Source: Kiritimatiella glycovorans
GTDB taxonomy: Bacteria > Verrucomicrobiota > Kiritimatiellia > Kiritimatiellales > Kiritimatiellaceae
Assembly: GCF_001017655.1 (NCBI RefSeq)
Contig: NZ_CP010904.1
Span: forward strand, 2,730,001 to 2,762,000
Direction of reading: 5' to 3'
Length of the DNA: 32,000 nt
The first letter of the stretch is position 1, and every line of letters begins with the position of its first letter. The translations under genes were made by a program, and so were the position numbers. Shown piece by piece: positions 3,253 to 27,585 of this stretch. The notes under the pieces were generated by a model, which was given only the letters and a program-made list of their open reading frames with translations, had not been told where the DNA came from and made no database searches.

Positions 3253-4074
3253 TCACAGAACCCCCGGCACGGCGGCGATGAAGTACGGGTTGAGGAGGTC
3301 CTGCTTGTTGTAGCGCAGCGGTACGTCCGTCCCGTGCTGCAGGACCACGCCGCCCGCGGCTTCGACGACGGCCTGCGCGGCGGCGGTGTCCCATTCCATC
3401 GTGGGCGCAATACGGGGATACACATCCGCCGCGCCCTCGGCGACCAGGCAGAGCTTGAGCGAACTGCCCTTCGACACCAGTTCGGCCGGCCCGTATTGGG
3501 CCTCGAGTTCGGCAATAAACTGTTCCGTGGCCTCGTTGCGGTGAGAGCGGGAGGCGACCACGCGGATGCCGCCCGGGTCCCCCGGCCCCTCGCCGAGCGT
3601 TGGCAGCGCCGCTTCCTCGAGCGCACCGGGGAGATCGTCCGCCGAATGGAAGTGCGTGCCCTTCAGGAGCCTCCAGGCCCCTTCGCCCGCGACCCCGAGA
3701 TAGGCCGTGTTCAGCACGGGCGCGTAGACGGCCCCCATCACCGGCACACCGCTTTCGATCAGGGCGATGTTGACCGTGAATTCGCCGTTCTTTTTGATGA
3801 ATTCCTTTGTTCCGTCGAGCGGATCGACCAGCCAGAATCGTTCCCAGTCCTTCCGTTCCGCATAAGGGATCTCCGCGCTCTCTTCCGACAGGACCGGGAT
3901 TCCCGTGGGTTCAAGTTTCTTCAGGATGATGTCGTGCGACGCGCGGTCCGCCTCCGTCAGCGGCGAATCGTCGGCCTTGTGCTCCACGTCGAAATCGCGC
4001 GCGTAGACCTCCAGGATCGCCGCGGTGGCCTCGAGTTCGGCTTCAAGCAGCAGTCTCAGCTGTTCAGAGTTCAT
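3253..4074 (-). CDS. cysQ: 3'(2'),5'-bisphosphate nucleotidase CysQ (inositol monophosphatase family)
   Basis: 273 aa with IMPase/CysQ motifs (SPLTEADRASH, WLVDPLDGTKEF, VASRSH). A GAGGAG RBS lies 6-7 nt upstream of the ATG at 4074. Confidence 0.85.
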   Translation of the reverse strand: MNSEQLRLLLEAELEATAAILEVYARDFDVEHKADDSPLTEADRASHDIILKKLEPTGIPVLSEESAEIPYAERKDWERFWLVDPLDGTKEFIKKNGEFTVNIALIESGVPVMGAVYAPVLNTAYLGVAGEGAWRLLKGTHFHSADDLPGALEEAALPTLGEGPGDPGGIRVVASRSHRNEATEQFIAELEAQYGPAELVSKGSSLKLCLVAEGAADVYPRIAPTMEWDTAAAQAVVEAAGGVVLQHGTDVPLRYNKQDLLNPYFIAAVPGVL

Positions 4075-4089
4075 CGATGCTCCTCAGTT

Positions 4090-5115
4090 TTTGGGGGCGG
4101 GGGAACGGCGCTGCGCGCCTCGGGGGAAACGTGGCAACGGCGCTGCGCGCCTCGTGGGAACGCTTCGCTCGTGAAAACGGCGCTGCGCGCCTCGTAGGAA
4201 ACGGCCTTCGGCCTCGAAACAACGCTGCGCTCGTGGGAACGACATTCCCCCCGATTGCCACGATCTTCCTCGATTGCCACGAGGCCCGTCAGGGCCGTTG
4301 ACACGATCTTCCACGCTTCGCTCGTGAAAACGGCCTTCGGCCTCGAAACAACGCTGCGCTCGTGGGAACGACATTCCCCCCGATTGCCACGATCTTCCTC
4401 GATTGCCACGAGGCCCGTCAGGGCCGTTGACACGATCTTCCACGCTTCGCTCGGGGCAACGGCCTTCGGCCTCGGGGGGAACGTGGCAACGGCGCTGCGC
4501 GCCTCGTGAAAACGCTGCGCTCGTGAGGACGCTTCGCTCGAGGCAACGGCGCTGCGCGCCTCGTGGGAAACGGCCTTCGGCCTCGAAACAACGCTGCGCT
4601 CGTGGGAACGACATTCCCCCCGATTGCCACGATCTTCCTCGATTGCCACGAGGCCCGTCAGGGCCGTTGACACGATCTTCCACGCTTCGCTCGTGAAAAC
4701 GGCCTTCGGCCTCGGGGGGAACGTGGCAACGGCGCTGCGCGCCTCGGGGAAACGCTGCGCTCGTGAGAACGGCGCTGCGCGCCTCGGGGCAACGCTTCGC
4801 TCGGGGCAACGGCACGTCCCCCGACTGCCACGAGGCCCGAGAGGGCCGTTGACACGACTTCCCCCCGATTGCCACGAGGCCCGTAAGGGCCGTTGACACG
4901 ATCTTCCACGCTTCGCTCGGGGCAACGGCGCTGCGCGCCTCGGGGCAACGCTTCGCTCGGGGAAACGGCACGTCCCCCGACTGCCACGAGGCCCGAGAGG
5001 GCCGTTGACACGACTTCCCCCCGATTGCCACGAGGCCCGTAAGGGCCGTTGACACGACTTCCCCCCGACTTCCTCGAGGCCCGTCAGGGCCGTTGCCACG
5101 ACTCTCCCCCCGACT
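4090..5115 (-). repeat. Hairpin-module array 1 (about 1.0 kb; strand given is the one carrying the GNA triloops)
   Basis: Plus strand is a continuous concatenation of four triloop modules: GGCGCTGCGCGCC (8 by eye), GGCCTTCGGCC (5), GCTTCGC (8) and GCTGCGC (5). They are joined by linkers such as TCGTGGGAAAC, TCGTGAAAAC and TCGGGGCAAC. There are also 8 GGCCC-N4-GGGCC hairpins (loops GTCA, GTAA, GAGA). A 122-bp block is repeated identically at 4203, 4332 and 4572. The region is open in several frames on both strands, so it is not coding. Confidence 0.9.
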
Positions 5116-5233
5116 CATATCTCTCACTCAACCCGGACAGGCTCCCGCCCTCGGTCGATCGGGATCGCTTTCCCGAAACCTTCCCTGCGTGTCTTCAAAT
5201 GTCGGCGGGAACTCACGGTTCTCGCTTTGGTCT

Positions 5234-5800
5234 TCAGCCCCGGCGCCGCTCCAGCGGATGGCGGTCGTCGGTACTGACCGCCCGGGCGTCGAACTCGAGT
5301 TCGATGGTGCGCCCGAGCATTTCGAGAAGCACCTGCACGCGGCGGGTGGCGGACATGACGTTCGTCACCCGGACCCGCAGTCCCTGCAGGCGCCCCTCAC
5401 AGATCGTCACTTCCTCGCCGGGACGCGGGAGGTCCTCGATGACCGCCGTCTCGTCGACGCCGAGATCGCGGCGAAGGTCTTGAATAAATTCTTCCGGGAT
5501 GTCCGGTGTCTGCTCGCCGAAGTGGACGAGTCCCCGCACGCCGGGGGCGTAGCCGACCCCGCGCCACTCGTGCCGGCGGTCGAAGTGTGCAAAGACATAT
5601 CCCGGGAACAGCGCCTCCTGGAACCAGACGGGACCGCGTACCGTTTTCTTGCGAAAGCGCATTTGAGGTCCGAACACCTCGAATCCGCGCTCCTTAAGAA
5701 TCTTCCCCGCAATCCCCTCGCGACGGGTCTGCGTACGCACGCAATACCAGCGGCGTTCTTTCCCCTCCATCCCCGCCTTCATGTCCTCCATGCCCTTCAT
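5234..5800 (-). CDS. Specialised NusG-family paralog (RfaH/UpxY-like transcription antiterminator)
   Basis: NGN-like N-terminus (RRWYCVRTQTRREGIAGKILKERGFEVFGPQ, LFPGYVFAHF) and a KOW-like C-terminus (GEEVTICEGRLQGLRVRV). The first ATG is at 5800; the track start at 5806 is TTG. About 188 aa and standalone, not in the secE-nusG-rplK context. Confidence 0.7.
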   Translation of the reverse strand: MKGMEDMKAGMEGKERRWYCVRTQTRREGIAGKILKERGFEVFGPQMRFRKKTVRGPVWFQEALFPGYVFAHFDRRHEWRGVGYAPGVRGLVHFGEQTPDIPEEFIQDLRRDLGVDETAVIEDLPRPGEEVTICEGRLQGLRVRVTNVMSATRRVQVLLEMLGRTIELEFDARAVSTDDRHPLERRRG

Positions 5801-5812
5801 GGTCAATCTCTC

Positions 5813-6295
5813 TTAACGGTCGATCATCTTCATCACCAGCGGGAGCACGGTGGTGCCCTTCCGATGCCAGTTTTCCAGGTGTTCGACCTTCTCTTCCAGA
5901 AACGGGCGCTGCGCCTCCGGCATTGCGCCGACCAGTTCCCGCATACGCTTCAGGCGCTGTTCGCCGCTCTCCAGGTGCGGCTGGAGTTCTTCATCGACGA
6001 ATCCGGCGGCGATCCTGCGCAGCTGATCCTCCGCCACGTAATAGTCGCGGCGGGAGCCCGGGAGGTAGACCGGTTTCACGGCGCGGAATGAGCGCAGTAT
6101 GCGCAGGCCCTGGCTGACCGAGCCCTTACTGATGTTGAGGCGCGCCATGAGGTCGTCAATGCAGAGCGGTTCCGGGGAGATGAACAGGAGCCCGTAGAGT
6201 TCGCCCACCGAGCGGGGAAGATTGAGCATCCCGGCCATACGAACGAAGAGTTCGATCACCTCGCGCTCCAGATCGCTGATTGTGCGCTGTTCCAT
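5813..6295 (-). CDS. GbsR/MarR-family winged-helix transcriptional regulator
   Basis: Core ELYGLLFISPEPLCIDDLMARLNISKGSVSQGLRILRSFRAVKPVYLPGSRRDYYVAE matches the GbsR-type HTH pattern. I prefer the ATG at 6295 (MEQRTISDLE...) to the TTG at 6385, which overlaps the AT-rich palindrome. Confidence 0.7.
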   Translation of the reverse strand: MEQRTISDLEREVIELFVRMAGMLNLPRSVGELYGLLFISPEPLCIDDLMARLNISKGSVSQGLRILRSFRAVKPVYLPGSRRDYYVAEDQLRRIAAGFVDEELQPHLESGEQRLKRMRELVGAMPEAQRPFLEEKVEHLENWHRKGTTVLPLVMKMIDR

Positions 6296-6383
6296 CTTTG
6301 TGTCCACGGGCGTCCCTCCCGCGCGGGAGAGTGGCGGCATCTCATGCTTATGCGCCTGTATAGGACCGATTTGAAAGAGATGC

Positions 6384-6419
6384 AACCATATCGTTCAATT
6401 ATTATTGAACATTATGGTT
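6384..6419. promoter_or_regulatory. AT-rich imperfect palindrome, candidate operator/promoter of the GbsR-like regulator
   Basis: AACCATATCGTTCAAT-TATT-ATTGAACATTATGGTT has 16-nt arms matching at 14/16. It lies in a conspicuously AT-rich gap (6386-6473) of a GC-rich genome, directly upstream of the minus-strand regulator gene. Confidence 0.4.
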
Positions 6420-6473
6420 CGATGAGTTTCGGGTTAAAGGCGGATAGCGTTCTGACCACCTCAGCTCGGATAT

Positions 6474-7439
6474 CTACTCAACCTCCACCCCTCTGATCGC
6501 GGCGATGCCGAGCGCGAGCACCGCGACAAGGCAGGCGGCGGCGTAGGAGAGCACGGAACATGTGTACGACCACGGAACGCGGCCGCCGCCGGCGAGCCCG
6601 TCGACCACCCAGAAGTGCTGCCAGTCGGGGATGACGGCGTAGAGCACCCCCGCGATAAGATGAGTATCGGCGTGCCGGCCAAACAGGTAATACGAACTCA
6701 ATCCGAGCAGAAAGATCAATGTGACCGCGAACAGCGTGGGCAGCGTATCGAGCCGCACCGAGATGGCCAGCGCGATCGCCGAAAGCAGAAGCACCGCTGC
6801 GCCCACCAGCGTGGTCACCGGCCACAGCCTAAGGTCATAGGCCCCGCCGAACGCAGTCCATCCGCCCTGTGTATCCAGGAAACCCACAAAGACATAAGCG
6901 GCCGCCGCCGCCGCGACCGTCCCGGAAAAAGCCGCCGCCGGAAAGGACCGCCGCGTTGCGTAATTCAGCACCCCTCCGAGCAGGCATCCCGCCGCCGGGA
7001 CCGCCAGCAGCGGTACGCCCGCCCACCCGTCGAAGTGGAACGAAGGATGCGCCATGCGCGCACTCATGATTACCGCCATCGACATCGCCGCGCCGAACAG
7101 GACCAGCACCGCGCCCACCCCGAAGGCCTTGCCGAGAAAGAAGAGGGCGCGATTGACGGGCTTGCTCAGGATCCCGGACGCCGTGCCGCCCCGCAACTCG
7201 TGCGCGAGCGTCGTTCCCGCGGCGTAAGCGCCGAGCAGGAGACCGCTCACCAGAAACACCGCCAGGCCGCTGTCGCGCACCATCCGCTCCGACTCGCCAA
7301 GCGTATACAGGGAGAACAGCGGCAACAGTCCTACCAGCAGGATGCCAAGCGTCGTCACCAGCATCGTCACCGGCTGACGCACGACCTCCCGGACCGTCAA
7401 CCCGGCCACGACGAAGAACTGTCGGAATAGGATCGTCAT
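6474..7439 (-). CDS. Multi-pass membrane protein, ABC-2-type transporter permease-like (no ATPase partner in window)
   Basis: About 321 aa from the ATG at 7439 (MTILFRQFFVVAGLTVREVV...), hydrophobic throughout. The track ORF extends to 7736 only because it reads into array 2; that N-terminal 99 aa is the repetitive RP-rich array translation. Confidence 0.55.
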   Translation of the reverse strand: MTILFRQFFVVAGLTVREVVRQPVTMLVTTLGILLVGLLPLFSLYTLGESERMVRDSGLAVFLVSGLLLGAYAAGTTLAHELRGGTASGILSKPVNRALFFLGKAFGVGAVLVLFGAAMSMAVIMSARMAHPSFHFDGWAGVPLLAVPAAGCLLGGVLNYATRRSFPAAAFSGTVAAAAAAYVFVGFLDTQGGWTAFGGAYDLRLWPVTTLVGAAVLLLSAIALAISVRLDTLPTLFAVTLIFLLGLSSYYLFGRHADTHLIAGVLYAVIPDWQHFWVVDGLAGGGRVPWSYTCSVLSYAAACLVAVLALGIAAIRGVEVE

Positions 7440-7489
7440 GGATTTCACAAAACAGGATGTAGCATGGAAGAAACCGCGAAACAACAGAG

Positions 7490-8210
7490 GGTTCGGGGAA
7501 ATCGCGGGAACGGCCTTCGGCCTCGGAGGGGGAACGTGGAAACGGCGCTGCGCGCCTCGTGGGGAACGTGGAAACGGCGCTGCGCGCCTCGTGGGAACGC
7601 TGCGCTCGGGGAAACGGCCTTCGGCCTCGGAACAACGCTTCGCTCGTGGGAACGGCGCTGCGCGCCTCGTGGGAAACGGCCTTCGGCCTCGAAACAACGC
7701 TGCGCTCGTGGAAACAGCACGTCCCCCGACTGCCACGATCTTCCCCGATTGCCACGAGGCCCGTCAGGGCCGTTGCCACGACTCTCTTCCCGACTTCCTC
7801 GAGGCCCGTCAGGGCCGTTGCCACGGTTTCCCCGATTGCCACGATCTTCCACGCTTCGCTCGTGGGAACGGCGCTGCGCGCCTCGGGGAAACGCTTCGCT
7901 CGAGTAAACGGCCTTCGGCCTCGGGGGGATCGTGGAAACGGCCTTCGGCCTCGGAACAACGCTTCGCTCGTGGGAACGGCGCTGCGCGCCTCGTGGGAAA
8001 CGGCCTTCGGCCTCGGAACAACGCTTCGCTCGTGAAAACGACATTCCCCCCGACTTTCTCGAGGCCCCTGGGCCGTTGCCACGACTCCCCCCGACTTTCA
8101 CGAGGCCCGTCAGGGCCGTTGCCACGACTTCCCCCCCCCACTGCCACGAGGCCCGAGAGGGCCGTTGCCACGACTCCCCCCCCGACTTCCCCCGATCTCC
8201 ACGATTCCGG
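7490..8210 (-). repeat. Hairpin-module array 2 (about 0.72 kb; same plus-strand orientation as array 1)
   Basis: Same module set: GGCGCTGCGCGCC (5), GGCCTTCGGCC (6), GCTTCGC (5), GCTGCGC (2). There are 4 intact and 1 degenerate GGCCC-N4-GGGCC hairpins, mostly in the right third (8040-8200). Poly-C runs there vary in length. A 58-bp stretch (GGCGCTGCGCGCCTCGTGGGAAACGGCCTTCGGCCTCGAAACAACGCTGCGCTCGTGG) is identical to array 1. Confidence 0.9.
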
Positions 8211-8331
8211 CGACTCATTTTGATCTTACTTTACCACCGGCACGGCATCTGACATGATGGGGGAGTGACGGAAAACTGAACCGGGACGGCCCGGATGAAA
8301 TGGTTGAAGTGGACTGAAAGGAGGACACGGA

Positions 8332-8682
8332 ATGGCGGATTATCATGAAGATCAACTCAGCGAAGCGTCGATGAACGCCTCGCGCGCATTGAAGAGTGTG
8401 AAGGAGGAGATCGAGGCGGTCGACTGGTACAACCAGCGTGTGGACGCTACGAATGATCAGGAGCTTGCGAAGATTCTGGCCCACAACCGCGACGAAGAGA
8501 TTGAGCACGCCTGCATGGTGCTGGAGTGGCTGCGACGCAACATGCCCGGCTGGGACGAGCAGATGAAAACCTATCTGTTTACGCAGGGCGACATCACTCT
8601 TCTCGAAGAAGAGGGTGAAGGCGGCGAAGAGGGCGGAGAGGCCCCCGCGGGCGGCGATCTGGCCATCGGAAAAATCGAGTAA
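8332..8682 (+). CDS. Encapsulated ferritin-like cargo protein (EncFtn) with C-terminal encapsulin targeting peptide
   Basis: 116 aa with the ferritin-like EEIEH di-iron motif region (NRDEEIEHACMVLEWLRR). A Gly/Glu-rich linker precedes the C-terminal GGDLAIGKIE, which resembles family-1 cargo-loading peptides. AAAGGAGG RBS lies upstream. The gene sits immediately 5' of the shell gene. Confidence 0.85.
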   Translation: MADYHEDQLSEASMNASRALKSVKEEIEAVDWYNQRVDATNDQELAKILAHNRDEEIEHACMVLEWLRRNMPGWDEQMKTYLFTQGDITLLEEEGEGGEEGGEAPAGGDLAIGKIE

Positions 8683-8697
8683 GAGGGGAGGCAACGC

Positions 8698-9492
8698 ATG
8701 GATAATCTCAGGAAAGAACTCGCGCCGATCTCCGAAGAGGGTTGGCAGGAAATCAATGAGCAGGCCCGGCGCGTACTGCGCAACAATCTCAGCGCCCGCC
8801 GTTTCGCGGACGTCGACGGGCCGAAGGGCTGGGACTGCACTTCCGTCTCGCTCGGTCGCCTGAATGTTCCGGAAAAGCAGGCGGACCATGACGTGCGCTA
8901 CGGGGTCCACCTCGTGCAGCCGCTCGTCGAGGCACGGGTGTCGTTCAAGCTGAAGACGTGGGAACTCGACAACGCCGTTCGTGGCGCGGAGGACATCGAC
9001 CTCGAACCGCTCGAGGACGCCGCCGCGAAAATCGCCGCCTTCGAGGACGCCGCCGTGTATTACGGGTTCGATGCGGGCTGCATCCGGGGTCTCAAGGCGG
9101 AGTCGGATCACAAGGCGCTCAAGTGGCCGGAAAAGGCCGAGGACGCGCTCGGGACCGTTCAGGACGGCGTTCAGGCGCTGCGAGCCGCATCGGTCGAAGG
9201 ACCGTACAACCTGGTCATCGACGCCAAGCGGTGGAAGGCCGTGGAAAGCCATGTCGGCGGCTATCCGCTCAGGAACCGCATTCAGGACGCCCTCGGCGGA
9301 AAGGTCATCGTATCACCCAACGTCAAAAACGCCTTCCTCGTCTCCGGACGCGGCGGCGATTTCCGACTGACGCTCGGCGCCGATCTCTCGATCGGCTACG
9401 AAGGCCACGATACCGAATCGGTCCAGCTCTACCTCACCGAATCGTTCACCTTCCAGGTGCTCGACCCGGCGGCGGCGGTCGTGCTCGCGTAA
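8698..9492 (+). CDS. Family 1 encapsulin nanocompartment shell protein (HK97-fold, linocin M18-like)
   Basis: 264 aa. MDNLRKELAPISEEGWQEINEQARRVLRNNLSARRFADVDGPKGWD... matches the conserved family-1 encapsulin N-terminus. Length is typical. The start is 16 nt after the EncFtn stop, with a GAGGGGAGG RBS. Confidence 0.9.
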   Translation: MDNLRKELAPISEEGWQEINEQARRVLRNNLSARRFADVDGPKGWDCTSVSLGRLNVPEKQADHDVRYGVHLVQPLVEARVSFKLKTWELDNAVRGAEDIDLEPLEDAAAKIAAFEDAAVYYGFDAGCIRGLKAESDHKALKWPEKAEDALGTVQDGVQALRAASVEGPYNLVIDAKRWKAVESHVGGYPLRNRIQDALGGKVIVSPNVKNAFLVSGRGGDFRLTLGADLSIGYEGHDTESVQLYLTESFTFQVLDPAAAVVLA

Positions 9493-9517
9493 GCGGGCGG
9501 GAAAAAACCGCGGCAGG

Positions 9518-10240
9518 CGGGGAGGTCGTGGAAATCGGGGGGATCGTGGCAATCGGGGAAGTCGTGTCAACGGCCCTCACGGGCCTCGTGGCAGTCGGGG
9601 GAAATGTCGTTCCCCCGAGGCGCGCAGCGCCGTTGCCACGTTCCCCCCCCGAGGCCGAAGGCCGTTGCCTCGAGCGCAGCGTTCCCCCGAGGCGCGCAGC
9701 GCCGTTGCCTCGAGCGAAGCGTGGAAGATCGTGGCAATCGGGGAAGTCGTGTCAACGGCCCTTACGGGCCTCGTGGCAGACGGGGGAAATGCCGTTCCCA
9801 CGAGGCGCGCAGCGCCGTTTTCACGTTTCCCCCCCGAGGCCGAAGGCCGTTGCCTCGAGCGAAGCGTGGAAAATCGTGGCAGTCGAGGAAGTCGTGTCAA
9901 CGGCCCTTACGGGCCTCGTGGCAGACGGGGGAAATGCCGTTCCCACGAGGCGCGCAGCGCCGTTTTCACGTTCCCCCCCCGAGGCCGAAGGCCGTTTCCA
10001 CGAGCGAAGCGTGGAAGATCGTGGCAATCGAGGAAGTCGTGTCAACGGCCCTCTCGGGCCTCGTGGCAGTCGGGGGAAATGCCGTTCCCACGAGGCGCGC
10101 AGCGCCGTTTTCACGTTTCCCCCCCGAGGCCGAAGGCCGTTTCCACGAGCGAAGCGTCCCCCCCGAGCGAAGCGTTGCCCCGAGGCGCGCAGCGCCGTTG
10201 CCACGTTCCCCCCTCACGTTCCCCCGAGCCACGCAGCGTT
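9518..10240 (+). repeat. Hairpin-module array 3 (about 0.72 kb; inverted relative to arrays 1 and 2)
   Basis: Plus strand carries the reverse complements of the array 1/2 modules: GGCGCGCAGCGCC (6), GGCCGAAGGCC (4), GCGAAGC (5), GCGCAGC (1). It also has 4 GGCCC-N4-GGGCC hairpins (loops TCAC, TTAC, TTAC, TCTC). A 145-bp higher-order unit starts at 9746, 9891 and 10036; the first two copies differ at about 6 positions. Confidence 0.9.
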
Positions 10241-10268
10241 TGTCTGCCAAGAACCCTGAGGAATCTCC

Positions 10269-12188
10269 ATGAACTGGTCTGAACTGCTGAACGAATCCCA
10301 GGCCGCCGCGGTCACGGCGCCCGACGGACCCGTACTCGCCATTGCCGCCGCGGGTACCGGCAAGACACGCACGCTTACCTGCCGGGTCGCCCACCTGGTC
10401 TGCGAACGTGAAATCCCGCCCGACCGAATTCTGCTGCTGACGTTCACCAACAAGGCGGCCGACGAGATGCTCGAACGGGCGCGTTCGATGGCGGGCGACG
10501 AAGTCAGCGGGCTTTGGGGCGGGACGTTTCATCATCTTGCCAACCGGCTGCTGCGGCGACACGCCGACCGGCTCGGGTTCGGGCTCGACTACACCATCCT
10601 CGACTCCGACGACACGAAAAAGCTGCTGCGCACCGTCACGCTCGAACTGGGCCTGAAGGGAAAGCACTTCCCGAAACCCGGCGTGCTCTCCAGCGTGTTC
10701 GGTGTGGCCGCGAATACCGAGCGCGGGATCGAGGACCTCGCCCGGGAGTGGTTCGAGGACAGCGACGTGCAGCCCGAACAGGTGGTCGACGTCTACCATG
10801 AATACGAACAGCGTAAACGGTCGCTCAACTCGATGGATTTCGACGATCTTCTCATTCACGCCCTGAACCTGATCCGCGATCAGCAGGACCTGCGCGAACA
10901 GTACCAGGAACGTTTTCGCTATATCCTGGTGGACGAATACCAGGACACCAGCGCCATCCAGGCGGAGTGGGTCGATCTACTCGCCGGCGGACACCGCAAT
11001 CTGATGGTGGTCGGCGACGACTTCCAGAGCATCTACTCGTGGCGCGGCGCGAATTACCGCAATATCCTGCATTTCCAGGAACGCTACCCGGACGCCCGGG
11101 TCTATAAACTTGAGACCAATTACCGGAGCAGCCCCGAGATCCTCGAGGTCGCCAACCGCTGCATCGCCGGTAACCCGCACCAGTTTCAGAAAAACCTGCG
11201 CGCCGTGCGCGAGCACGCTCCCAGGCCCCGGCTAGCCCGCATGCTCGACAGCCGCCGGCAGGCGAGGTACGTCCTTCAGCGCGTACGCGAGTTCGAGCGC
11301 AACGGCGTTTCGCTCGAAGACATGGCCGTCCTCTACCGCTCCCACTTCCACGCCCTCGACCTGCAGCTCGAACTCACCCGCGAAAACCTCCCCTTTACCC
11401 TGACCTCCGGCGTCCGCTTCTTCGAGCAGGCCCACATAAAAGACGTCTGCACCCTGCTGCGACTGCTGGAGAATCCGGGCGACGAACTGGCGTTCGCACG
11501 CCTGCTCGAAATGTTCCCCAAAGTCGGCGCCAAAACGGCGCAGAAGATTTGGGATAAGATCGGGCGCCGGTTCCGTGCACGCTCTCCCGACGAGTGTGTG
11601 CGGGTGCGCGATTCGCTTCCGAGCGCCGCCAAGGCCTCGTGGATGGCCGCCGAACCGATCTTCCTCGCCTACCGCGAGGAAGGACTGGACGAGGATCCGG
11701 GCGAGATCGTCTTTCGCTTCGTCAGGGAATTCTACCGCGAATACGCCGTGGAGACCTTCGATAACGCCCGCAACCGGCTCGAAGATATCGATGCGCTGAT
11801 CGACTTCACGTCGCGCTACACCAGTACGCAGCAATTCCTCAGCGAGACCGCCCTCCTGAGCAGCCTCGAGTCCACCACCTCCGGTCCCGGCGCCGACGCC
11901 GGCGGACTCCGCCTCAGCACGATCCACCAGGCCAAGGGGCTCGAATGGAAGATCGTCTTCGTGATCTGGCTCAGCGAGGAGATGTTCCCCAGTGCCCGCG
12001 CGGAAGCCGACACGGAAAAACTGGCCGAGGAACGCCGGCTGTTCTACGTCGCCACCACCCGCGCCGAAGACCGCCTGTTTCTCTGCACCCCGGAACGCAA
12101 GCAGACCCGCGACGGCGGACTGATGCCCTGCGAACCCTCGCGCTTCCTCCGCGAACTCCCCGCCGAATGCGTCGAACTGGAACTCTAG
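10269..12188 (+). CDS. UvrD/PcrA/Rep-family ATP-dependent DNA helicase
   Basis: 639 aa with a Walker A motif (AAAGTGKTRTL), LVDEYQDTS (motif II), SIYSWRGA and the C-terminal TIHQAKGLEW and YVATTRAEDRL motifs of SF1 UvrD-like helicases. Confidence 0.85.
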   Translation: MNWSELLNESQAAAVTAPDGPVLAIAAAGTGKTRTLTCRVAHLVCEREIPPDRILLLTFTNKAADEMLERARSMAGDEVSGLWGGTFHHLANRLLRRHADRLGFGLDYTILDSDDTKKLLRTVTLELGLKGKHFPKPGVLSSVFGVAANTERGIEDLAREWFEDSDVQPEQVVDVYHEYEQRKRSLNSMDFDDLLIHALNLIRDQQDLREQYQERFRYILVDEYQDTSAIQAEWVDLLAGGHRNLMVVGDDFQSIYSWRGANYRNILHFQERYPDARVYKLETNYRSSPEILEVANRCIAGNPHQFQKNLRAVREHAPRPRLARMLDSRRQARYVLQRVREFERNGVSLEDMAVLYRSHFHALDLQLELTRENLPFTLTSGVRFFEQAHIKDVCTLLRLLENPGDELAFARLLEMFPKVGAKTAQKIWDKIGRRFRARSPDECVRVRDSLPSAAKASWMAAEPIFLAYREEGLDEDPGEIVFRFVREFYREYAVETFDNARNRLEDIDALIDFTSRYTSTQQFLSETALLSSLESTTSGPGADAGGLRLSTIHQAKGLEWKIVFVIWLSEEMFPSARAEADTEKLAEERRLFYVATTRAEDRLFLCTPERKQTRDGGLMPCEPSRFLRELPAECVELEL

Positions 12189-12229
12189 TGTCACTCAGGT
12201 CTCAAGTTTCAGGTCTCCCACTCCCTCTT

Positions 12230-12253
12230 ACTCTGACTCTGACTCTGACTCTG
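12230..12253. repeat. Hexanucleotide microsatellite (ACTCTG)x4
   Basis: Four perfect tandem ACTCTG units flanked by related CTCTTA and ATTCTT hexamers. They lie in the helicase-flippase intergenic region, just right of a CTCAAGTTTCAGG motif (12210-12222). Confidence 0.8.
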
Positions 12254-12283
12254 ATTCTTCCCCACGTCCCTTCTTCCCGCCCC

Positions 12284-12552: not shown

Positions 12553-14049
12553 ATGCCGGGAAAGACACAGCGAGCGCTCCGCAATTCGGCGATCCAGGGG
12601 GTCTCCCAGGTCCTGACCTGGTCGCTCTCCTGGGTTCTACTGATCATGCTCCCCCGGTTTCTGGGGGATGAAGGCTTCGGCACGCTCTTCTTCGCCCTGT
12701 CCTACGGCACGATCTTCGGGACCCTGCTGAACCTGGGGATCAACAAATACCTCGTCAGAGAAGTCGCCGTCCTCAATCCCATCGATAAGCCGGGTGATGA
12801 ACAGGACGTCTTCCGCGAGAAAATCCGCCGGCTGCTCGGCAGCGTGTTCGCCATGAAACTCGCACTCGCGGTCGCGGTCTACGCGCTCATGGCCGTAACC
12901 GTGGTGCTTCTCCCCTACGACCGCGAGACCGTGCGCGCGGTCTGGATCATCGCCCTGGCCGTATGCATCGGCGACATGACCCTCACGCTCGGCAGTGTGT
13001 TCCAGGGGTTCGAGAACATGATGCCGCCCAACTTCGGACTGATCGCCGAGAAGGCCCTCACGACCGGCATCGCCGCCGCGCTGCTCCTGACGGGCCACGG
13101 TCTTCTCCTCGTCTGCTGGGTCTACGTGGGTGCCGCCGCGCTCAACTTCGCGATCGTACTGGGCCTCCTGCTCCGGCGCATCTCCTTTCGCCCCGTCTGG
13201 GACGCAGCGATCATGCGCGCCGTGTTTCTCGGCGGACTTCCTTTCCTGATCTGGGTGATCTTCGGCCAGATCTATGCGCGCATCGACGCCTTCATGCTTT
13301 CGCTGATGGTCGACAAGGCGGTGGTCGGCTGGTACGGCGCCGCCTTCCGGCTGTACAGCACCCTGCTGTTCATCCCGCACATGCTCAACACGGTGGTGTT
13401 CCCCCCGCTCGCGCGCATGGGCGCCGACGAGGAACAGGGCGCCGATTTCGCCCGGGCGTCCGAGCGGCTGCTCAACCTGCTCCTCTTCATCGCCATCCCC
13501 ATCGGCGCAGGCACCGCGCTGGTCGCCGGCCCGCTCGTACGGCTGCTCTACGGCGAGGGTCCGTTCCTGAATACCATCCCCAACCTGCAGATTTTCGGCG
13601 GGAGCATCGTGCTGGTGTGTATCGACGTCATGCTCGGCTCCATCCTGATCTCCCGCGGACTCCAGAAACAGTGGGCCTGGATGGCCGTAGCCGCGGCGGC
13701 GTTCAACCCGGTCATGAATGCCTGGATGATCCCGCTCACCCAGAAACTCTACGGCAACGGCGGGATCGGTGCCGCCTGGGCCACCCTGCTGACCGAGCTG
13801 CTCATGATGGGCGGCGCACTCTACCTCATGCCCCGCGGCATCCTGCGCCCGCAAAGCATCGTCGTCGGGCTCAAGGGACTGCTCGCCGCCGCGCTGATGT
13901 CCGCGGCCGTGATCGCGGTCGAATCCGACAACCTCTTCGTCGTGATCGCGGTCGGAGCCGCCGTGTACGTCCCGGCCGCGCTTCTGCTCGGCATCCCCCC
14001 CCGCAAAGACCTCCGTCACCTGCTCCACGCCCTGAAAATCGTGCGGTAG
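12553..14049 (+). CDS. MOP-superfamily polysaccharide/oligosaccharide flippase (Wzx-like)
   Basis: 498 aa with about 12-14 hydrophobic segments. The N-terminus (RNSAIQGVSQVLTWSLSWVLLIMLPRFLGDEGFG) is typical of polysaccharide biosynthesis (Polysacc_synt) proteins. Confidence 0.75.
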   Translation: MPGKTQRALRNSAIQGVSQVLTWSLSWVLLIMLPRFLGDEGFGTLFFALSYGTIFGTLLNLGINKYLVREVAVLNPIDKPGDEQDVFREKIRRLLGSVFAMKLALAVAVYALMAVTVVLLPYDRETVRAVWIIALAVCIGDMTLTLGSVFQGFENMMPPNFGLIAEKALTTGIAAALLLTGHGLLLVCWVYVGAAALNFAIVLGLLLRRISFRPVWDAAIMRAVFLGGLPFLIWVIFGQIYARIDAFMLSLMVDKAVVGWYGAAFRLYSTLLFIPHMLNTVVFPPLARMGADEEQGADFARASERLLNLLLFIAIPIGAGTALVAGPLVRLLYGEGPFLNTIPNLQIFGGSIVLVCIDVMLGSILISRGLQKQWAWMAVAAAAFNPVMNAWMIPLTQKLYGNGGIGAAWATLLTELLMMGGALYLMPRGILRPQSIVVGLKGLLAAALMSAAVIAVESDNLFVVIAVGAAVYVPAALLLGIPPRKDLRHLLHALKIVR

Positions 14050-14145
14050 AGGGATCATTGACCGCATTTTCAGGTTCAGACGGAACATTTCTTGATCTGC
14101 CGCGAAAGTTTCGCCAGTATTTCGGAAAGTGAAAGGAGTTCGCGG

Positions 14146-15180
14146 ATGAAGAAGGTTACTGTGTACACGCTCAGCGAAGAGCTTGGGGTCAGTCCGGCCA
14201 CGATCAGCAAAGCCCTTAACAATTCGCCGGAAATCAGTCCCGCGACCATCGAACGCATCCGTAAAAAGGCCGACGAATACGGCTTCCGGCCGCGGCCGAT
14301 CGTCTCACGCACCACCAATATCTGCGCCCTGATCCAGACCCCGGCGTCGGAGATGAGCTGCTTTTCGCCCTACACGGTCTCGGCCATGGAGGGGATGCTG
14401 AAGTATCTCCAGGAGGCGGGGCTCGAATTTTCGCTCTACCGCGACGAGGTGAGCAAGCTGAACGCAGGGCTGCTGCTCAGGCAGCTCGGCCGGCGCGGGA
14501 TCAATGGCGCCGTGCTGATCAACACCGACGAAGACAGCGCGTTTTACGCGGAATTCGAACAGCAGCACTTCGCCTACTGTTCGCTGCTGACCAACGACGG
14601 CCGTTCGGAACGCCTGCTGAGCATCGATAATGTTCAGGCGGCGTGCGAAGCGGTTCAGTATCTGATTCAACTCGGACACCGGCGTATCGGAACGCTGGTC
14701 ACCCCCGCCCACGGGGTCACCGGCCGTGACCGGCTGAAGGGCTACCGGAAGGCGCTGAAGGACTCGGGACTCGGGGTGGACCCGGAAGTTATTGTCGCTT
14801 CGGAGTTCGGCGAGGACGGCCTGGAGTTCGGAAACCGCGAAACGCTCGCGCTTCTGGACCGCCATCCGGACATCACCGCCCTTTTTGTTATGGGCGAGCG
14901 CGTGGCCGTCGGGGCGCTGCACGCCTTCTATCAGCGGGGACTCAAAGTGCCCGAGGACGTCTCCCTGCTCTCCTGCGACGACCCTCCGGAAGTGGCCTAC
15001 CTCTGCCCGCCCCTCACGGTCATGCGCATCCCGAACCGCAAGCTGGGTTATACCGCGGCGCGCTGGGTGCATGATATGATCGAAGGTACGGCGCGCGAGC
15101 GCTATCCCCACGAACCCTGGATGCGCGGCGAACTCGTGCTCCGCCAGAGCACCGGTCCCGTACGAAAAACCCAGCCCTGA
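14146..15180 (+). CDS. LacI-family transcriptional regulator
   Basis: N-terminal HTH (VTVYTLSEELGVSPATISKALNNSPEISPATIERIRKKADEYGFRP) followed by a periplasmic-binding-fold sugar-sensor domain. The ATG at 14146 follows an AAGGAG RBS by about 8 nt; the track start at 14092 is less likely. Confidence 0.85.
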   Translation: MKKVTVYTLSEELGVSPATISKALNNSPEISPATIERIRKKADEYGFRPRPIVSRTTNICALIQTPASEMSCFSPYTVSAMEGMLKYLQEAGLEFSLYRDEVSKLNAGLLLRQLGRRGINGAVLINTDEDSAFYAEFEQQHFAYCSLLTNDGRSERLLSIDNVQAACEAVQYLIQLGHRRIGTLVTPAHGVTGRDRLKGYRKALKDSGLGVDPEVIVASEFGEDGLEFGNRETLALLDRHPDITALFVMGERVAVGALHAFYQRGLKVPEDVSLLSCDDPPEVAYLCPPLTVMRIPNRKLGYTAARWVHDMIEGTARERYPHEPWMRGELVLRQSTGPVRKTQP

Positions 15181-15235
15181 CAAGGCTTCCCGGTCACGAA
15201 CACGAACCCGATAAACCCGAAAGGACCCCTCCGCC

Positions 15236-18067: not shown

Positions 18068-18091
18068 AAAGCTGCGTCCAATTTACACCTC

Positions 18092-18123
18092 ACCGTAAAG
18101 CAGTCGTGACTTTTTTTACGGTA
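18092..18123. terminator. Candidate bidirectional terminator hairpin between convergent genes
   Basis: ACCGTAAA...(T)7ACGGT can pair ACCGTAAA with TTTACGGT next to a T7 run. It lies in the 61-nt gap between the GH78-like stop (18067) and the sulfatase stop (18129). The loop is long, so support is modest. Confidence 0.35.
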
Positions 18124-18128
18124 CGGGT

Positions 18129-24711: not shown

Positions 24712-25590
24712 ATGCCGGATCGCAACAAATCCTGGTTCTGCTATCTGCCGGTGACCCCGGAGGCACAGGACTGGGGATTATATGTGCTCGACGCGGGATA
24801 CACGCTGATCCCTCCCCATACGCCGTATCCGCCCCACCAGCACCCGGAGGATCACCATTTCAGGTGGGAGCTGGGACGGACCCTGGATTCCTATACGCTC
24901 GTCTACATCACCCGCGGGGGCGGGGTCTTCGACTCGGTGCGCGGCGGCGAGCAGCGCATCTCGGCGGGCGATCTCTTCATCCTGTTTCCCGGCGAATGGC
25001 ACCGCTACCGCCCCGACGCCGAGACCGGATGGGACGAGCACTGGGTGGAGTTCGACGGCGAACAGGCGCGTCGTATTATGAGCCACACGGGATTTACGCC
25101 GCGCAAGCCTGTGATTCAGGTCGGGGAGGACGACGAGTTGCTGCGACTGTTTCTCGAGATCGCCGAGGCGACGGAAACCCAGCCCTACGGATTTGAACAC
25201 GTGATCGCCGCAAAAACCTCGCAGATCGTCGCCTGCGCTCTCGCCGACCTGCGCCGTGGTGAATTCGCCGACCGCGAAAACGAGAAACTGATCCGCCGTG
25301 CGCGCGCCTACCTGATCGAGCACATGGACACCCCCGTCGATTACCGCGAACTCGCCTGCATGCTGGGACTCAGTTACTCCGCTTTTCGCCGCCTTTTCAA
25401 GCAGTTCACGGGGCTGCCGCCCGGCCGCTACCAGCGCGCCCTGCGCATTCGCAGGGCCGGCGATATGCTGCGCCGCACACGCCTTCCCATCGGGGAGATT
25501 GCCGAGCGGCTCGGATTCGAGTCGATCTACTACTTTTCGCGCGTTTTTAAGAAAGAGACCGGACGTGCCCCCAGCGAGTGCCGCGAGTAA
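24712..25590 (+). CDS. AraC-family transcriptional regulator (cupin sensor plus HTH)
   Basis: 292 aa with an N-terminal cupin-like sensor. The C-terminal double HTH (LACMLGLSYSAFRRLFKQFTG ... IGEIAERLGFESIYYFSRVFKKETGRAPSE) is typical of AraC/XylS regulators. Confidence 0.85.
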   Translation: MPDRNKSWFCYLPVTPEAQDWGLYVLDAGYTLIPPHTPYPPHQHPEDHHFRWELGRTLDSYTLVYITRGGGVFDSVRGGEQRISAGDLFILFPGEWHRYRPDAETGWDEHWVEFDGEQARRIMSHTGFTPRKPVIQVGEDDELLRLFLEIAEATETQPYGFEHVIAAKTSQIVACALADLRRGEFADRENEKLIRRARAYLIEHMDTPVDYRELACMLGLSYSAFRRLFKQFTGLPPGRYQRALRIRRAGDMLRRTRLPIGEIAERLGFESIYYFSRVFKKETGRAPSECRE

Positions 25591-25735
25591 CGTCGCGATC
25601 GCGAGGAGAGAATGGGATTAACCATATTGGTTGAGGGGGGGAGTAAGAATCAGAATCGGGATCGGGATTCACAGAGAACATGATTCGTACTCGGAGCGCC
25701 GAAGGCGCGATCCCACTTCCCCTGTTCAAGGAATT

Positions 25736-25782
25736 CGAGTACGAGTACCGCTTCGCTGAGTACGAGTGCGAGTACGAGTACG
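25736..25782. repeat. Interrupted hexanucleotide tract (CGAGTA/GAGTAC)n
   Basis: CGAGTACGAGTAC-CGCTTCGCT-GAGTACGAGTGCGAGTACGAGTAC. A further hexamer-phased tract lies at 25641-25670 (GAGTAAGAATCAGAATCGGGATCGGGATTC). A TTGAAACTTGAAGG motif follows at 25807-25820. Confidence 0.7.
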
Positions 25783-25879
25783 GATTAGGAAGTGTCCCGT
25801 TGACTGTTGAAACTTGAAGGCGGTCTCCTGAGCGTCCATGTTGGACGCTCGGGGCAAACCAACCCGAAAGGAGACCGCC

Positions 25880-27469: not shown

Positions 27470-27585
27470 ATCCCATTCTCTCTCCCCTTACGATCTCCCG
27501 CATCCCACCTTTCCCGGGAACCCGTCCATAAAAATCCACGAATAACCAAAAATTTCAGTAGAGCCGAAGTGCATCACGATCCCGC

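What the first reader, a model, noticed from the sequence alone, without database searches (positions are those of the whole stretch)
4090..10240. Three kb-scale arrays built almost entirely from strand-asymmetric C-GNA-G triloop minihairpins
All three arrays use one small vocabulary. Written on the purine-loop strand, the triloop modules are GGCGC-GCA-GCGCC, GGCC-GAA-GGCC, GC-GAA-GC and GC-GCA-GC. They are joined by 8-12 nt linkers such as GTTTCCCAC, GTTGCCAC and GTTTTCAC. A separate GGCCC-N4-GGGCC module is also present. My hand counts of triloop plus tetraloop hairpins are 26+8 (array 1), 18+5 (array 2) and 16+4 (array 3). Every triloop is GAA or GCA closed by a C:G pair, and within an array all lie on the same strand. 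The complementary strand carries only TTC/TGC loops. GCGAAGC and GCGCAGC are the sequences of the d(GCGNAGC) family, known from work by Hirao and colleagues as exceptionally stable DNA minihairpins with a sheared G.A pair. Tandem concentration of about 60 such units, with no unique spacers and no coding capacity, is not explained by ordinary REP/BIME elements. REP/BIME elements are usually single or in small alternating clusters. The pattern points to selection on single-stranded folding (ssDNA or RNA) of one strand. I do not know of a described system with this architecture.
Basis: partly seen in the sequence, partly recalled or inferred. Interest (0 to 1): 0.88.

Follow-up and report, generated by a model that had tools for sequence, protein, structure and literature searches.

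The report
Mosaic mini-hairpin repeat arrays in Kiritimatiella
Three non-coding stretches of about 0.7 to 1 kb in Kiritimatiella glycovorans are built from 77 tiny GC-rich hairpin modules placed in both orientations; they look like an unusual, species-specific relative of the REP/BIME repeats of other bacteria, not a wholly new system.

Summary
Three non-coding arrays (4104-5125, 7509-8217, 9516-10240) contain 77 GC-rich mini-hairpin modules. Chance predicts none, and none occurs elsewhere in the window.

The "one-strand" reading is incomplete. Every module has one design: CGA, stem, G(N)NA loop, stem, GTT. The 60 triloop modules and 17 tetraloop modules always lie on opposite strands. The 10-nt linkers occur equally often in both orientations. 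Each array is therefore a mosaic of inverted blocks. These form 129-240-bp higher-order units, 95-96% identical within an array and 77-90% between arrays.

The window is Kiritimatiella glycovorans. Its annotation calls the arrays hypothetical proteins. Four more arrays with the same grammar exist in that genome, and none was found in any other organism searched.

Triloop orientation follows the downstream gene, not replication. Arrays end 29-69 nt before start codons, so they are probably transcribed.

Best reading: a lineage-specific REP/BIME/REPIN-like mosaic repeat family expanded by tandem duplication. It lacks the GTAG/CGTC tag, and a RAYT transposase could not be tested. A selected single-strand function is not excluded, for example non-template-strand mini-hairpins read by the adjacent NusG paralog.

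The parts
4104..5125 (-). Array 1. It has 26 class I (triloop) modules on the minus strand and 8 class II (GNNA tetraloop) modules on the plus strand. It lies between the NusG-paralog stop (5234) and the cysQ ATG (4074) and ends 29 nt before that ATG.
7509..8217 (-). Array 2. It has 18 class I modules on the minus strand and 4 class II modules plus 1 degenerate one on the plus strand. It lies in the divergent intergenic region between the membrane-protein gene (ATG 7439, 69 nt away) and EncFtn (ATG 8332, 114 nt away).
9516..10240 (+). Array 3. It has 16 class I modules on the plus strand and 4 class II modules on the minus strand. It starts about 23 nt after the encapsulin stop (9492). The last perfect module ends 69 nt before the uvrD/pcrA-like ATG (10269), and degenerate array sequence continues to about 10240.
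4280..5094 (+). Span holding the eight class II modules of array 1, CGAGGCCCG(TC/AG/TA)AGGGCCGTT. They are antiparallel to the class I modules and embedded in reverse-orientation linkers (TCGNNNNAAC on the minus strand).
4191..4771 (-). Higher-order repeats of array 1: period 129 (2.2 copies, 96% matches) and period 240 (1.9 copies, 96%). A further 156-bp unit lies at 4752-5062 (2.0 copies, 96%).
9684..10157 (+). Higher-order repeat of array 3: 145 bp x 3.3 copies, 95% matches. Each unit is an R-arm (reverse linkers plus one class II module), a turn (GGGGGAAATGCCGTTCCC), and an F-arm (H13, H11 and h7 class I modules). The minimum-free-energy fold is a long hairpin pairing the R-arm with the F-arm.
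3253..4074 (-). Context: cysQ-type 3'(2'),5'-bisphosphate nucleotidase gene. Its Shine-Dalgarno sequence (GAGGAG) and ATG follow array 1 directly.
5234..5806 (-). Context: specialised NusG paralog (best matches RfaH and UpxY, below family cut-offs), directly upstream of array 1 on the same strand.
6474..7439 (-). Context: membrane-protein gene with no family hit, downstream of array 2 on the class I strand.
8332..9492 (+). Context: EncFtn (8332-8682) and family-1 encapsulin (8698-9492) operon, bracketed by arrays 2 and 3.
10269..12188 (+). Context: UvrD/PcrA-like helicase gene, downstream of array 3 on the class I strand.

Best explanation
The arrays are a lineage-specific family of non-coding mosaic palindromic repeats of the REP/BIME/REPIN kind in Kiritimatiella glycovorans.

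Building block (shown): an oriented module, CGA + perfect G:C stem of 2-5 bp + G-N-A or G-N-N-A loop + stem' + GTT. Modules are joined by a 9-11-nt linker, GTTNNNNCGA.

Organisation (shown): triloop (class I) and tetraloop (class II) modules are always antiparallel. A block of reverse linkers plus class II modules, followed by a block of forward linkers plus class I modules, makes an imperfect inverted repeat of about 130-240 bp. This resembles a REPIN-like doublet with extra hairpins.

Origin (inferred): such units were copied to at least seven loci. They were then amplified locally by tandem duplication, through unequal recombination or slippage between the near-identical units.

Transcription (inferred): two arrays leave no room for a promoter before the next start codon, and class I orientation always matches that gene. 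The arrays are therefore most probably transcribed as intercistronic or 5' leader RNA.

Effect (inferred by analogy with REP/BIME): they form a dense hairpin forest that modulates transcript elongation, processing or stability and separates the expression of neighbouring genes. They would not encode a product or guide anything.

The G...A loop rule (inferred): it reflects either selection for intrinsically stable hairpins or recognition by the still unidentified enzyme that spreads the modules.
For: - Module design and strand rule. 76 of 77 modules follow it and chance expectation is 0.
- Both linker orientations are equally frequent.
- Similarity of each array to its own reverse complement scores 148, 118 and 80, against about 32 for shuffles.
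- The minimum-free-energy fold of a unit is a long R-arm/F-arm hairpin.
- Higher-order repeats are 95-96% identical within arrays. Arrays share segments of 170-550 bp at 77-90% identity, in the same orientation.
- The arrays are not coding. One module is read in three frames within one ORF.
- Translated arrays hit only seven "hypothetical proteins" of K. glycovorans among 5.8 billion protein clusters.
- All seven obey the antiparallel class I / class II rule.
- Arrays end 29, 69 and 69 nt before the start codons of same-sense genes. All three lie on one replichore.
- The genome was closed with PacBio reads from a >10-kb library plus MiSeq, so 1-kb arrays are not assembly artefacts (PMC5148204).
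- Precedent exists: REP clusters reiterated in tandem together with their flanks, and arrays of 5-bp-stem REPs flanking EPS genes in Thauera MZ1T (PMC3733652). BIMEs are defined by REPs in alternating orientation (PMC2817692 abstract).
Against: - The defining GTAG or CGTC tag of the described REP superfamilies is absent. The flanks are CGA...GTT.
- Hairpins are much shorter (7-14 nt) than REPs (20-40 nt).
- Class I modules run head-to-tail in runs of 3-9. This arrangement is rare or absent in described REP families.
- No singleton or doublet module occurs in the 29.5 kb outside the arrays.
- No RAYT or IS200-type gene lies in the window. The rest of the genome could not be read.
- Array 2 sits between divergent genes, which is atypical for BIMEs.
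- No transcript data exist, so transcription and any RNA-level effect are inferred.
- Nothing here explains why loop ends are invariably G and A across four different stems.
Confidence: 0.55

Rival explanations
1. The arrays are functional single-strand elements read during transcription. [quoted passage not shown] There they pause RNA polymerase or recruit a factor, for example the specialised NusG paralog encoded directly upstream of array 1. This would control read-through into the downstream gene.
For: - Class I hairpins lie on the non-template (sense) strand of the downstream gene in 3 of 3 arrays, irrespective of replication direction.
- A NusG paralog whose best matches are RfaH and UpxY sits immediately 5' of array 1.
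- RfaH is recruited to a non-template-strand DNA hairpin whose loop is G4-A7 closed by C3:G8, that is GC-GGTA-GC, the same C-GNNA-G design (PMC5995543).
- The junction form GCGAAGCGTG resembles the ops element GCGGTAGCGTG (the ops sequence is from my own knowledge).
- DNA GNA mini-hairpins are far more stable than their RNA counterparts (PMC13037366).
- The loop G...A and closing C:G are invariant across four stem types.
Against: - The RfaH residues that read ops (H20, R23, Q24, R73) align to I, E, R and P in this paralog.
- Known NusG paralogs use one or two recruitment sites, not dozens.
- Six of the seven arrays have no adjacent NusG paralog known to me.
- Class II modules with the same G...A rule sit on the template strand.
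- Folding energies show no consistent strand preference.
- Three of three co-orientation has a chance probability of 0.125.
Confidence: 0.15
2. The modules are bona fide RAYT-mobilised REPs or REPINs. A Y1 (IS200-like) transposase elsewhere in the genome would recognise the CGA-hairpin-GTT modules as single-stranded DNA and insert them. The arrays would be hot spots of repeated insertion.
For: - The design is a short GC-rich hairpin with a conserved unpaired 5' trinucleotide and a 3-nt tail. It occurs as inverted pairs of two types that can form a long hairpin, as in REPINs (PMC3337134 abstract).
- "Empty" and "filled" linker junctions coexist (...CGA|TTGCC... against CGA[hairpin]GTTGCC).
- The published genome description reports 75 transposase genes.
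Against: - The tag is neither GTAG nor CGTC.
- No RAYT lies in the 32-kb window.
- No dispersed singleton lies outside the arrays.
- Head-to-tail runs predominate.
- High identity over whole 129-240-bp units shows growth by duplication of large units, not by module-by-module insertion.
Confidence: 0.15
3. The arrays are double-stranded DNA binding platforms, for a nucleoid-associated protein, gyrase, or a partition- or iteron-type protein, with no role for hairpins.
For: - BIMEs bind IHF and gyrase in E. coli (own knowledge; the binding role is mentioned in the PMC2817692 abstract).
- The 10-nt linker is close to one helical turn.
- Linker cores have low diversity.
Against: - Module spacing is irregular (17, 21, 23, 32-34 nt and so on), so sites are not helically phased.
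- Four different stems of different length share only the loop ends and flanks. This fits structure-level constraint, not sequence-specific duplex recognition.
- No candidate binding protein was identified.
Confidence: 0.05
4. The arrays are protein-coding genes, as annotated (L21SP4_02319, 02323, 02326), for Arg/Gly/Pro-rich repeat proteins.
For: - Long ORFs of 222-347 aa run through each array.
- The class I strand is strongly depleted in stop triplets: 0 in the 736 nt of array 3.
Against: - Identical DNA modules are translated in all three frames within one ORF, so conservation is at the DNA level and not the protein level.
- ORFs exist on both strands.
- There are no Pfam domains and no homologues outside the seven arrays of the same genome.
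Confidence: 0.02
5. The arrays are guide-RNA arrays of the CRISPR or TIGR stem-loop type.
For: They are tandem palindromic units with short variable cores (4 nt) in the linkers. TIGR stem-loop arrays have variable palindromes flanking short spacers (PMC12045711).
Against: - There are no unique spacers. Linker cores come from a small repeated set.
- No box C (TGATGA) occurs on either strand.
- None of the 19 window ORFs scanned against Pfam gave a cas or Nop-domain hit; some of them had no family hit at all.
- Unit length is irregular.
Confidence: 0.02

Closest known systems
BIMEs (bacterial interspersed mosaic elements) of E. coli and enterobacteria
   Same: Both are extragenic mosaics of two types of GC-rich palindromic units placed in opposite orientation and joined by a small set of conserved linker motifs. 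Both are reiterated in tandem, are usually co-transcribed with flanking genes, and are non-coding.
   Different: - Units here are 7-14-nt mini-hairpins, not REPs of about 35 nt.
- There is no GTAG tag.
- Class I units run head-to-tail in blocks of 3-9 instead of strictly alternating.
- Arrays reach 34 hairpins and 1 kb. BIME-2 reaches about 12 units (own knowledge).
- One array lies between divergent genes.
REPINs and REP clusters with RAYT (Pseudomonas, Stenotrophomonas, Thauera MZ1T GTAG-1 arrays)
   Same: An inverted pair of short palindromes can fold into one long hairpin. Clusters arise by tandem reiteration of units together with their flanks. Thauera has 5-bp-stem REPs in arrays that flank EPS genes (PMC3733652).
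   Different: - The tag is CGA...GTT and not GTAG or CGTC.
- The two partners of the doublet are different module classes.
- No singletons were seen.
- A RAYT is unknown.
- The family is confined to one species in every collection searched.
Neisseria intergenic mosaic elements (NIMEs, dRS3 = CGTC-1)
   Same: Both are large intergenic mosaic regions in which short tagged palindromes are interleaved with other repeat families (PMC3733652).
   Different: NIME repeat units are 50-150 bp bounded by 20-bp dRS3 (own knowledge). Here the units are about 20 nt and the hairpins themselves dominate.
d(GCGNAGC) / d(GCGNNAGC) mini-hairpin DNA (Hirao and colleagues) and the RfaH ops hairpin
   Same: 26 modules are exactly GCGAAGC or GCGCAGC. 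Every loop follows the G...A rule with a C:G closing pair, as in the mini-hairpins and as in the ops loop G4-A7 closed by C3:G8.
   Different: Known natural examples are single sites: phage G4 origin, the RSF1010 initiation signal ssiA, N4 promoters, and ops. Here about 60 are concatenated, and hairpin formation in vivo is untested.
CRISPR and TIGR stem-loop arrays
   Same: Tandem arrays of short palindromic units.
   Different: No unique spacers, no fixed period, no box C/D motifs, and no cas or tas genes nearby.

Membership tests
REP (GTAG / CGTC superfamilies, RAYT-associated) | Short GC-rich extragenic palindrome able to form a stem-loop | tested here: met
   All 77 modules are intergenic perfect G:C stems of 2-5 bp with 3-4-nt loops. 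They are shorter (7-14 nt) than the usual 20-40 nt.
REP (GTAG / CGTC superfamilies, RAYT-associated) | Unpaired GTAG or CGTC tetranucleotide tag at one end | tested here: not met
   The flanks are CGA at the 5' end and GTT at the 3' end in 76 of 77 modules. No GTAG, CTAC or CGTC tag is present. The definition comes from PMC3733652.
REP (GTAG / CGTC superfamilies, RAYT-associated) | Cognate RAYT (Y1 transposase) gene, typically flanked by the REPs | not testable with these tools
   No Y1_Tnp hit among the 19 window ORFs scanned. The rest of the K. glycovorans genome could not be retrieved.
REP (GTAG / CGTC superfamilies, RAYT-associated) | Dispersed through the genome as singletons and head-to-head or tail-to-tail dimers | tested here: not met
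   There are 0 true modules in the 29.5 kb outside the arrays; the 2 generic hits there are chance hairpins. Class I modules are mainly head-to-tail. At least 7 array loci exist in the genome. Genome-wide singletons were not testable.
BIME | Mosaic of palindromic units joined by a small set of conserved extra-palindromic motifs | tested here: met
   Four hairpin types are joined by 9-11-nt linkers GTTNNNNCGA from a small set of cores.
BIME | Successive palindromic units alternate in orientation | tested here: not met
   Only class I and class II are antiparallel to each other. Within a block, 3-9 class I units are in direct tandem.
REPIN | Two inverted palindromes separated by a spacer that fold into one long hairpin | tested here: met
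   The class II module and the H13 class I module, 33 nt apart, pair in the minimum-free-energy fold. Similarity to the reverse complement is far above shuffles. The partners are not identical.
CRISPR | Identical repeats separated by unique spacers of constant length; cas genes nearby | tested here: not met
   No unique spacers and irregular spacing. No cas domains in the ORFs scanned.
TIGR-Tas (including the stem-loop type) | Box C / box D motifs flanking dual spacers; adjacent Nop-domain Tas gene | tested here: not met
   TGATGA and GATGA are absent on both strands of all arrays. No Nop-domain hit in the ORFs scanned. The definition comes from PMC12045711.
Intrinsic terminator clusters | GC-rich hairpin followed by a T/U tract | tested here: not met
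   No terminator-like site inside any array. The tails are GTT(G/T/C)CC.
d(GCGNAGC) / d(GCGNNAGC) mini-hairpin | Sequence GC-G-N(N)-A-GC with sheared G.A and a C:G closing pair | tested here: met
   26 exact GCGAAGC or GCGCAGC. The longer stems keep C-GNA-G or C-GNNA-G. Actual folding in vivo was not tested. A generic nearest-neighbour model gives 0 kcal/mol for the 7-mer, so the claim of special stability rests on the literature.
RfaH-ops system | ops consensus in the non-template strand and an RfaH with the T6 pocket (H20, R23, Q24, R73) | tested here: not met
   The pocket residues align to I, E, R and P (against PMC5995543). Family scores fall below the cut-offs. The modules have triloops, not GGTA.
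Repeat-protein gene | Repeat conserved in one reading frame, with homologues elsewhere | tested here: not met
   The same module is read in three frames in one ORF. The only hits are the other arrays of the same genome.

The most novel reading that the evidence does not exclude
The arrays are tracks of DNA mini-hairpins that form in the non-template strand (class I), and in the template strand (class II), of the moving transcription bubble. They would be read co-transcriptionally, for instance by the RfaH/UpxY-like NusG paralog encoded next to array 1. This would make them a multi-site, structure-encoded elongation-control element. They would be a massively reiterated analogue of the single ops hairpin and a natural use of the d(GCGNAGC) motif.
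Probability: 0.07. Interest if true: 0.85.

Novelty: new variant of a known kind. Interest (0 to 1): 0.5.

Why it matters
- It corrects an annotation. At least seven "hypothetical proteins" of the type strain of the phylum Kiritimatiellota are non-coding repeat arrays.
- It adds a repeat family with an unusually explicit grammar: one module design, four stems, an invariant G...A loop rule, and two classes that are always antiparallel. This makes it a clean natural test bed for whether REP-like elements are shaped by single-strand hairpin stability, by a mobilising enzyme, or by transcription.
- If the polarity with respect to genes holds genome-wide, it would show that such arrays are constrained by transcription. 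It would also open the testable possibility that stable DNA mini-hairpins act in the transcription bubble.

Tried and rejected
- **Rfam.** Searches at gathering threshold and at E<=1 gave no family. ARAGORN found no tRNA or tmRNA.
- **Genome scan.** An exact 19-mer scan of 185,579 species genomes gave 66 single chance hits in unrelated GC-rich genomes. None had a second module. The source genome itself was not returned.
- **Metagenome scan.** A two-module pattern gave 5 single chance hits and no array.
- **Other collections.** Viral contigs, plasmids and phages gave nothing.
- **Retrieving the other arrays.** The look-up of encoding contigs for the window encapsulin and for the other array ORFs reported nothing on record. 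The other four arrays could therefore be studied only through their translations.
- **Closest relative.** The closest relative of the encapsulin operon (64% identity, L072-L074) has no arrays and different neighbours, so no orthologous comparison was possible.
- **Terminators and promoters.** The scan found nothing inside the arrays.
- **Strict inverted repeats.** A search with seed 9 and length >=20 found almost nothing, because the arms are imperfect. Local alignment to the reverse complement was needed.
- **Strand preference in RNA folding.** It was inconsistent.
- **Generic DNA folding.** The model does not capture GNA stability.
- **RAYT distribution.** Two papers were checked for K. glycovorans. 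No supplement was held for one, and the other's supplements had no mention of it.
- **Genome paper.** Its main text says nothing relevant about repeats, and its supplements are not held.
- **Rejected readings.** CRISPR, TIGR, coding and assembly-artefact readings were rejected (see rival explanations).

Full report
**1. What is there**

The window contains three blocks of dense short repeats:
- Array 1 at about 4104-5125.
- Array 2 at about 7509-8217.
- Array 3 at about 9516-10240.

Exact scans gave the following counts. All matches lie inside the three blocks, and 100 dinucleotide-preserving shuffles gave 0.00-0.07.
- 19 copies of CGAGGCGCGCAGCGCCGTT.
- 15 copies of CGAGGCCGAAGGCCGTT.
- 26 copies of CGAGCG(A/C)AGCGT.
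- 16 copies of CGAGGCCCGNNAGGGCCGTT.

Per array this is 26+8, 18+4 (plus one degenerate GGCCC-AG-GGGCC) and 16+4 triloop and tetraloop hairpins.

A pattern-free detector looked for CGA, a perfect stem of 2-6 bp, a 3-4-nt loop, the complementary stem and GTT. It found 69 sites in 32 kb, 67 of them in the arrays. G+C content of the arrays (66-68%) is like that of the flanks.

**2.

I tokenised each array on its triloop strand. Every hairpin is preceded by CGA and followed by GTT. Hairpins are joined by a 9-11-nt linker, GTTNNNNCGA, with a small set of cores.

The GGCCC-N4-GGGCC hairpins sit in stretches whose linkers are the reverse complement (TCGNNNNAAC). Read on the other strand, they are CGA-GGCCC-G(TC/AG/TA/TG)A-GGGCC-GTT.

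So there is one module design with two classes:
- Class I has G-N-A triloops on stems GC, GGCC or GGCGC.
- Class II has G-N-N-A tetraloops on stem GGCCC.

The two classes are always antiparallel. Class I is on the minus strand and class II on the plus strand in arrays 1 and 2, and the reverse holds in array 3.

Further evidence for two orientations:
- Forward and reverse linkers are equally common, 55 against about 54 after discounting four hairpin overlaps.
- Each array aligns to its own reverse complement with scores of 148, 118 and 80, against about 32 for shuffles.
- The minimum-free-energy fold of a unit pairs the reverse block with the forward block in one long hairpin.

The arrays are therefore mosaics of inverted blocks. 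They are not one-stranded hairpin strings, and the "complementary" strand also carries G...A-loop hairpins. Predicted RNA folding is strong on both strands (z = -4.7 to -8.0), with no consistent advantage for the triloop strand.

**3. Higher order**

The blocks form units of 129, 145, 156 and 240 bp, repeated 2-3.3 times at 95-96% identity. Each unit begins with reverse linkers and one or more class II modules. It turns at a short palindrome (GGGGGAA-TGYC-GTTCCC) and continues with 3-9 class I modules. It ends at a GCGAAGC that forms the next turn.

Between arrays, segments of 170-550 bp match at 77-90% identity in the same orientation. The arrays therefore descend from a common composite unit and grew locally by tandem duplication. 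This is an inference from the identity gradient.

Module spacing is irregular (17, 21, 23 and 32-34 nt). There is no fixed period and no helical phasing.

**4. Not coding, not a known RNA, not a guide array**

- Long ORFs cross the arrays on both strands.
- Within one ORF the same DNA module is read in all three frames: RGAQRR, EARSAV and RRAAP. Conservation is therefore at the DNA level.
- Rfam has no match even at E<=1, and there are no tRNAs.
- No terminator-like site lies inside the arrays.
- There are no unique spacers and no box C motifs, and no cas or Nop-domain hit among the 19 window ORFs scanned.

**5. Source and distribution**

I used the array-1 ORF as a protein query against 5.8 billion clusters. 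It returned only hypothetical proteins of Kiritimatiella glycovorans:
- L21SP4_02319, 100% identical, which is array 1.
- L21SP4_02323, which is array 2.
- L21SP4_02326, which is array 3.
- L21SP4_01247, 02129 and 00612.

The opposite-strand ORF of array 2 returned only L21SP4_01847. The encapsulin is 100% identical to that species' protein.

Peptides compatible with the modules show that all seven ORFs obey the rule of class I antiparallel to class II, with no exception. So at least seven arrays exist in this 2.95-Mb genome.

No array was found in any other collection searched:
- 185,579 species genomes.
- JGI metagenomes.
- Viral contigs.
- Plasmids and phages.

Short-read assemblies may collapse such repeats, so absence from MAGs is weak evidence. 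The nearest encapsulin operon (64% identity) has plain short intergenic regions.

The genome was closed with PacBio reads from a >10-kb library plus MiSeq (PMC5148204). I infer that the arrays, at about 1 kb, are not assembly artefacts. The main text of the genome paper says nothing relevant about these repeats.

**6. Context and polarity**

Position of each array:
- Array 1 lies between a NusG paralog and cysQ, both on the minus strand. It ends 29 nt before the cysQ ATG, just upstream of its GAGGAG ribosome-binding site.
- Array 3 starts about 23 nt after the encapsulin stop. Its last perfect module ends 69 nt before the ATG of a UvrD/PcrA-like helicase gene, and about 40 nt of degenerate array sequence follow it.
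- Array 2 lies between a minus-strand membrane-protein gene (69 nt from its ATG) and the plus-strand EncFtn gene (114 nt away).

In all three arrays the class I strand is the sense strand of the gene that follows. Cumulative GC skew falls monotonically across the window, so all three share one replication direction. Orientation therefore follows transcription, not replication. With n = 3 the chance probability is 0.125.

Two arrays leave no room for a promoter. I infer that they are transcribed as intercistronic or leader RNA, unless a promoter lies inside the array. No sigma-70-like site was found there, and promoter rules for this phylum are unknown.

**7. Interpretation**

The best-supported explanation is a lineage-specific mosaic palindromic repeat family of the REP/BIME/REPIN kind. 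It has the following features of that kind (PMC2817692, PMC3337134, PMC3733652):
- Two types of GC-rich palindromic units in opposite orientation.
- Conserved linker motifs.
- Inverted doublets that can form long hairpins.
- Growth by tandem reiteration of units with their flanks.
- Location in transcribed extragenic DNA.

Arrays of REPs with 5-bp stems flanking EPS genes in Thauera MZ1T are a direct precedent.

By analogy, the likely consequence is a hairpin-dense RNA segment that affects elongation, processing or stability and uncouples neighbouring genes. This step is inferred.

Membership in the described REP superfamilies fails on tested features:
- There is no GTAG or CGTC tag.
- Hairpins of 7-14 nt are far shorter than usual.
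- Head-to-tail runs predominate.
- No singleton lies outside the arrays.

A RAYT could not be sought beyond the window. I therefore file it as a new variant of a known kind, not as a member.

**8. What remains strange**

- Across four different stems, the loop always starts with G and ends with A, and the closing pair is always C:G. This is the rule for the exceptionally stable d(GCGNAGC)/d(GCGNNAGC) mini-hairpins. Their RNA versions are much less stable (PMC13037366). A generic nearest-neighbour model does not capture this.
- The RfaH recruitment signal ops is such a hairpin, with loop G4-A7 closed by C3:G8, in the non-template strand (PMC5995543). A NusG paralog closest to RfaH and UpxY is encoded immediately upstream of array 1.
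- However, the paralog lacks the ops-reading pocket residues: H20, R23, Q24 and R73 align to I, E, R and P. Dozens of sites per locus would also be unprecedented. I keep this as the low-probability novel reading.

**9. Verdict**

The polarity is real and the mini-hairpin sequences are real, but both strands carry modules and the architecture is BIME/REPIN-like.

Interest is moderate. The finding gives an unusually clean grammar, a species-specific family and mis-annotated genes. It also gives a testable link between stable DNA mini-hairpins and transcription.

Noticed in passing
window 8332-9492: An EncFtn plus family-1 encapsulin operon is bracketed on both sides by arrays 2 and 3. The closest relative operon (64% identity, L072) has plain short intergenic regions and different neighbours.
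   Followed up: partly
window 5234-5806 (-) and 5813-6385 (-): A specialised NusG paralog sits directly upstream of array 1. Its best matches are RfaH and UpxY, below family cut-offs, and the RfaH ops-pocket residues are not conserved. It is preceded by an ArsR/CudC-like HTH regulator.
   Followed up: partly
window ~5113-5120 and ~8210-8217 (minus strand): The same 8-mer ATGAGTCG marks the 5' edge (class I strand) of arrays 1 and 2 but not array 3. It may be an element terminus or chance.
   Followed up: no
window 9509-10245 (+), 4089-5125 (-), 7489-8215 (-): The class I strand is strongly depleted in stop triplets: 0, 5 and 4 in any frame, against roughly 16-23 expected from base composition. 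This explains why gene callers annotated the arrays as hypothetical proteins L21SP4_02326, 02319 and 02323.
   Followed up: partly
window 25838-26641 (+), 25000-27500: A Mutator-family transposase fragment lies in a patch of lower G+C (0.57-0.59 against about 0.65). It is probably an IS remnant or insertion.
   Followed up: no
window 12225-12258 and 25758-25782: Two hexamer microsatellites: (CTCTGA) x 5.7 and (GAGTAC) x 4.2.
   Followed up: no
window arrays, e.g. 8130-8140, 9640-9650: Homopolymer G/C runs in the linkers vary from 4 to 9 nt between otherwise identical copies. These are slippage-prone tracts close to gene starts.
   Followed up: no
proteins P0002 (L21SP4_01247) and P0127 (L21SP4_01847), outside the window: Translations of other arrays imply further module variants: GGCGC-GAA-GCGCC (peptide PRGAKRR) and probably GC-GTA-GC (peptide RYA). 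Both still have G-N-A loops. This is inferred from the protein sequence only.
   Followed up: partly
window 12553-19664: Downstream genes include a polysaccharide-biosynthesis flippase-like protein, a LacI-type regulator, an alpha-L-rhamnosidase and a sulfatase. This is typical of the sulfated-glycan lifestyle described for this organism.
   Followed up: no
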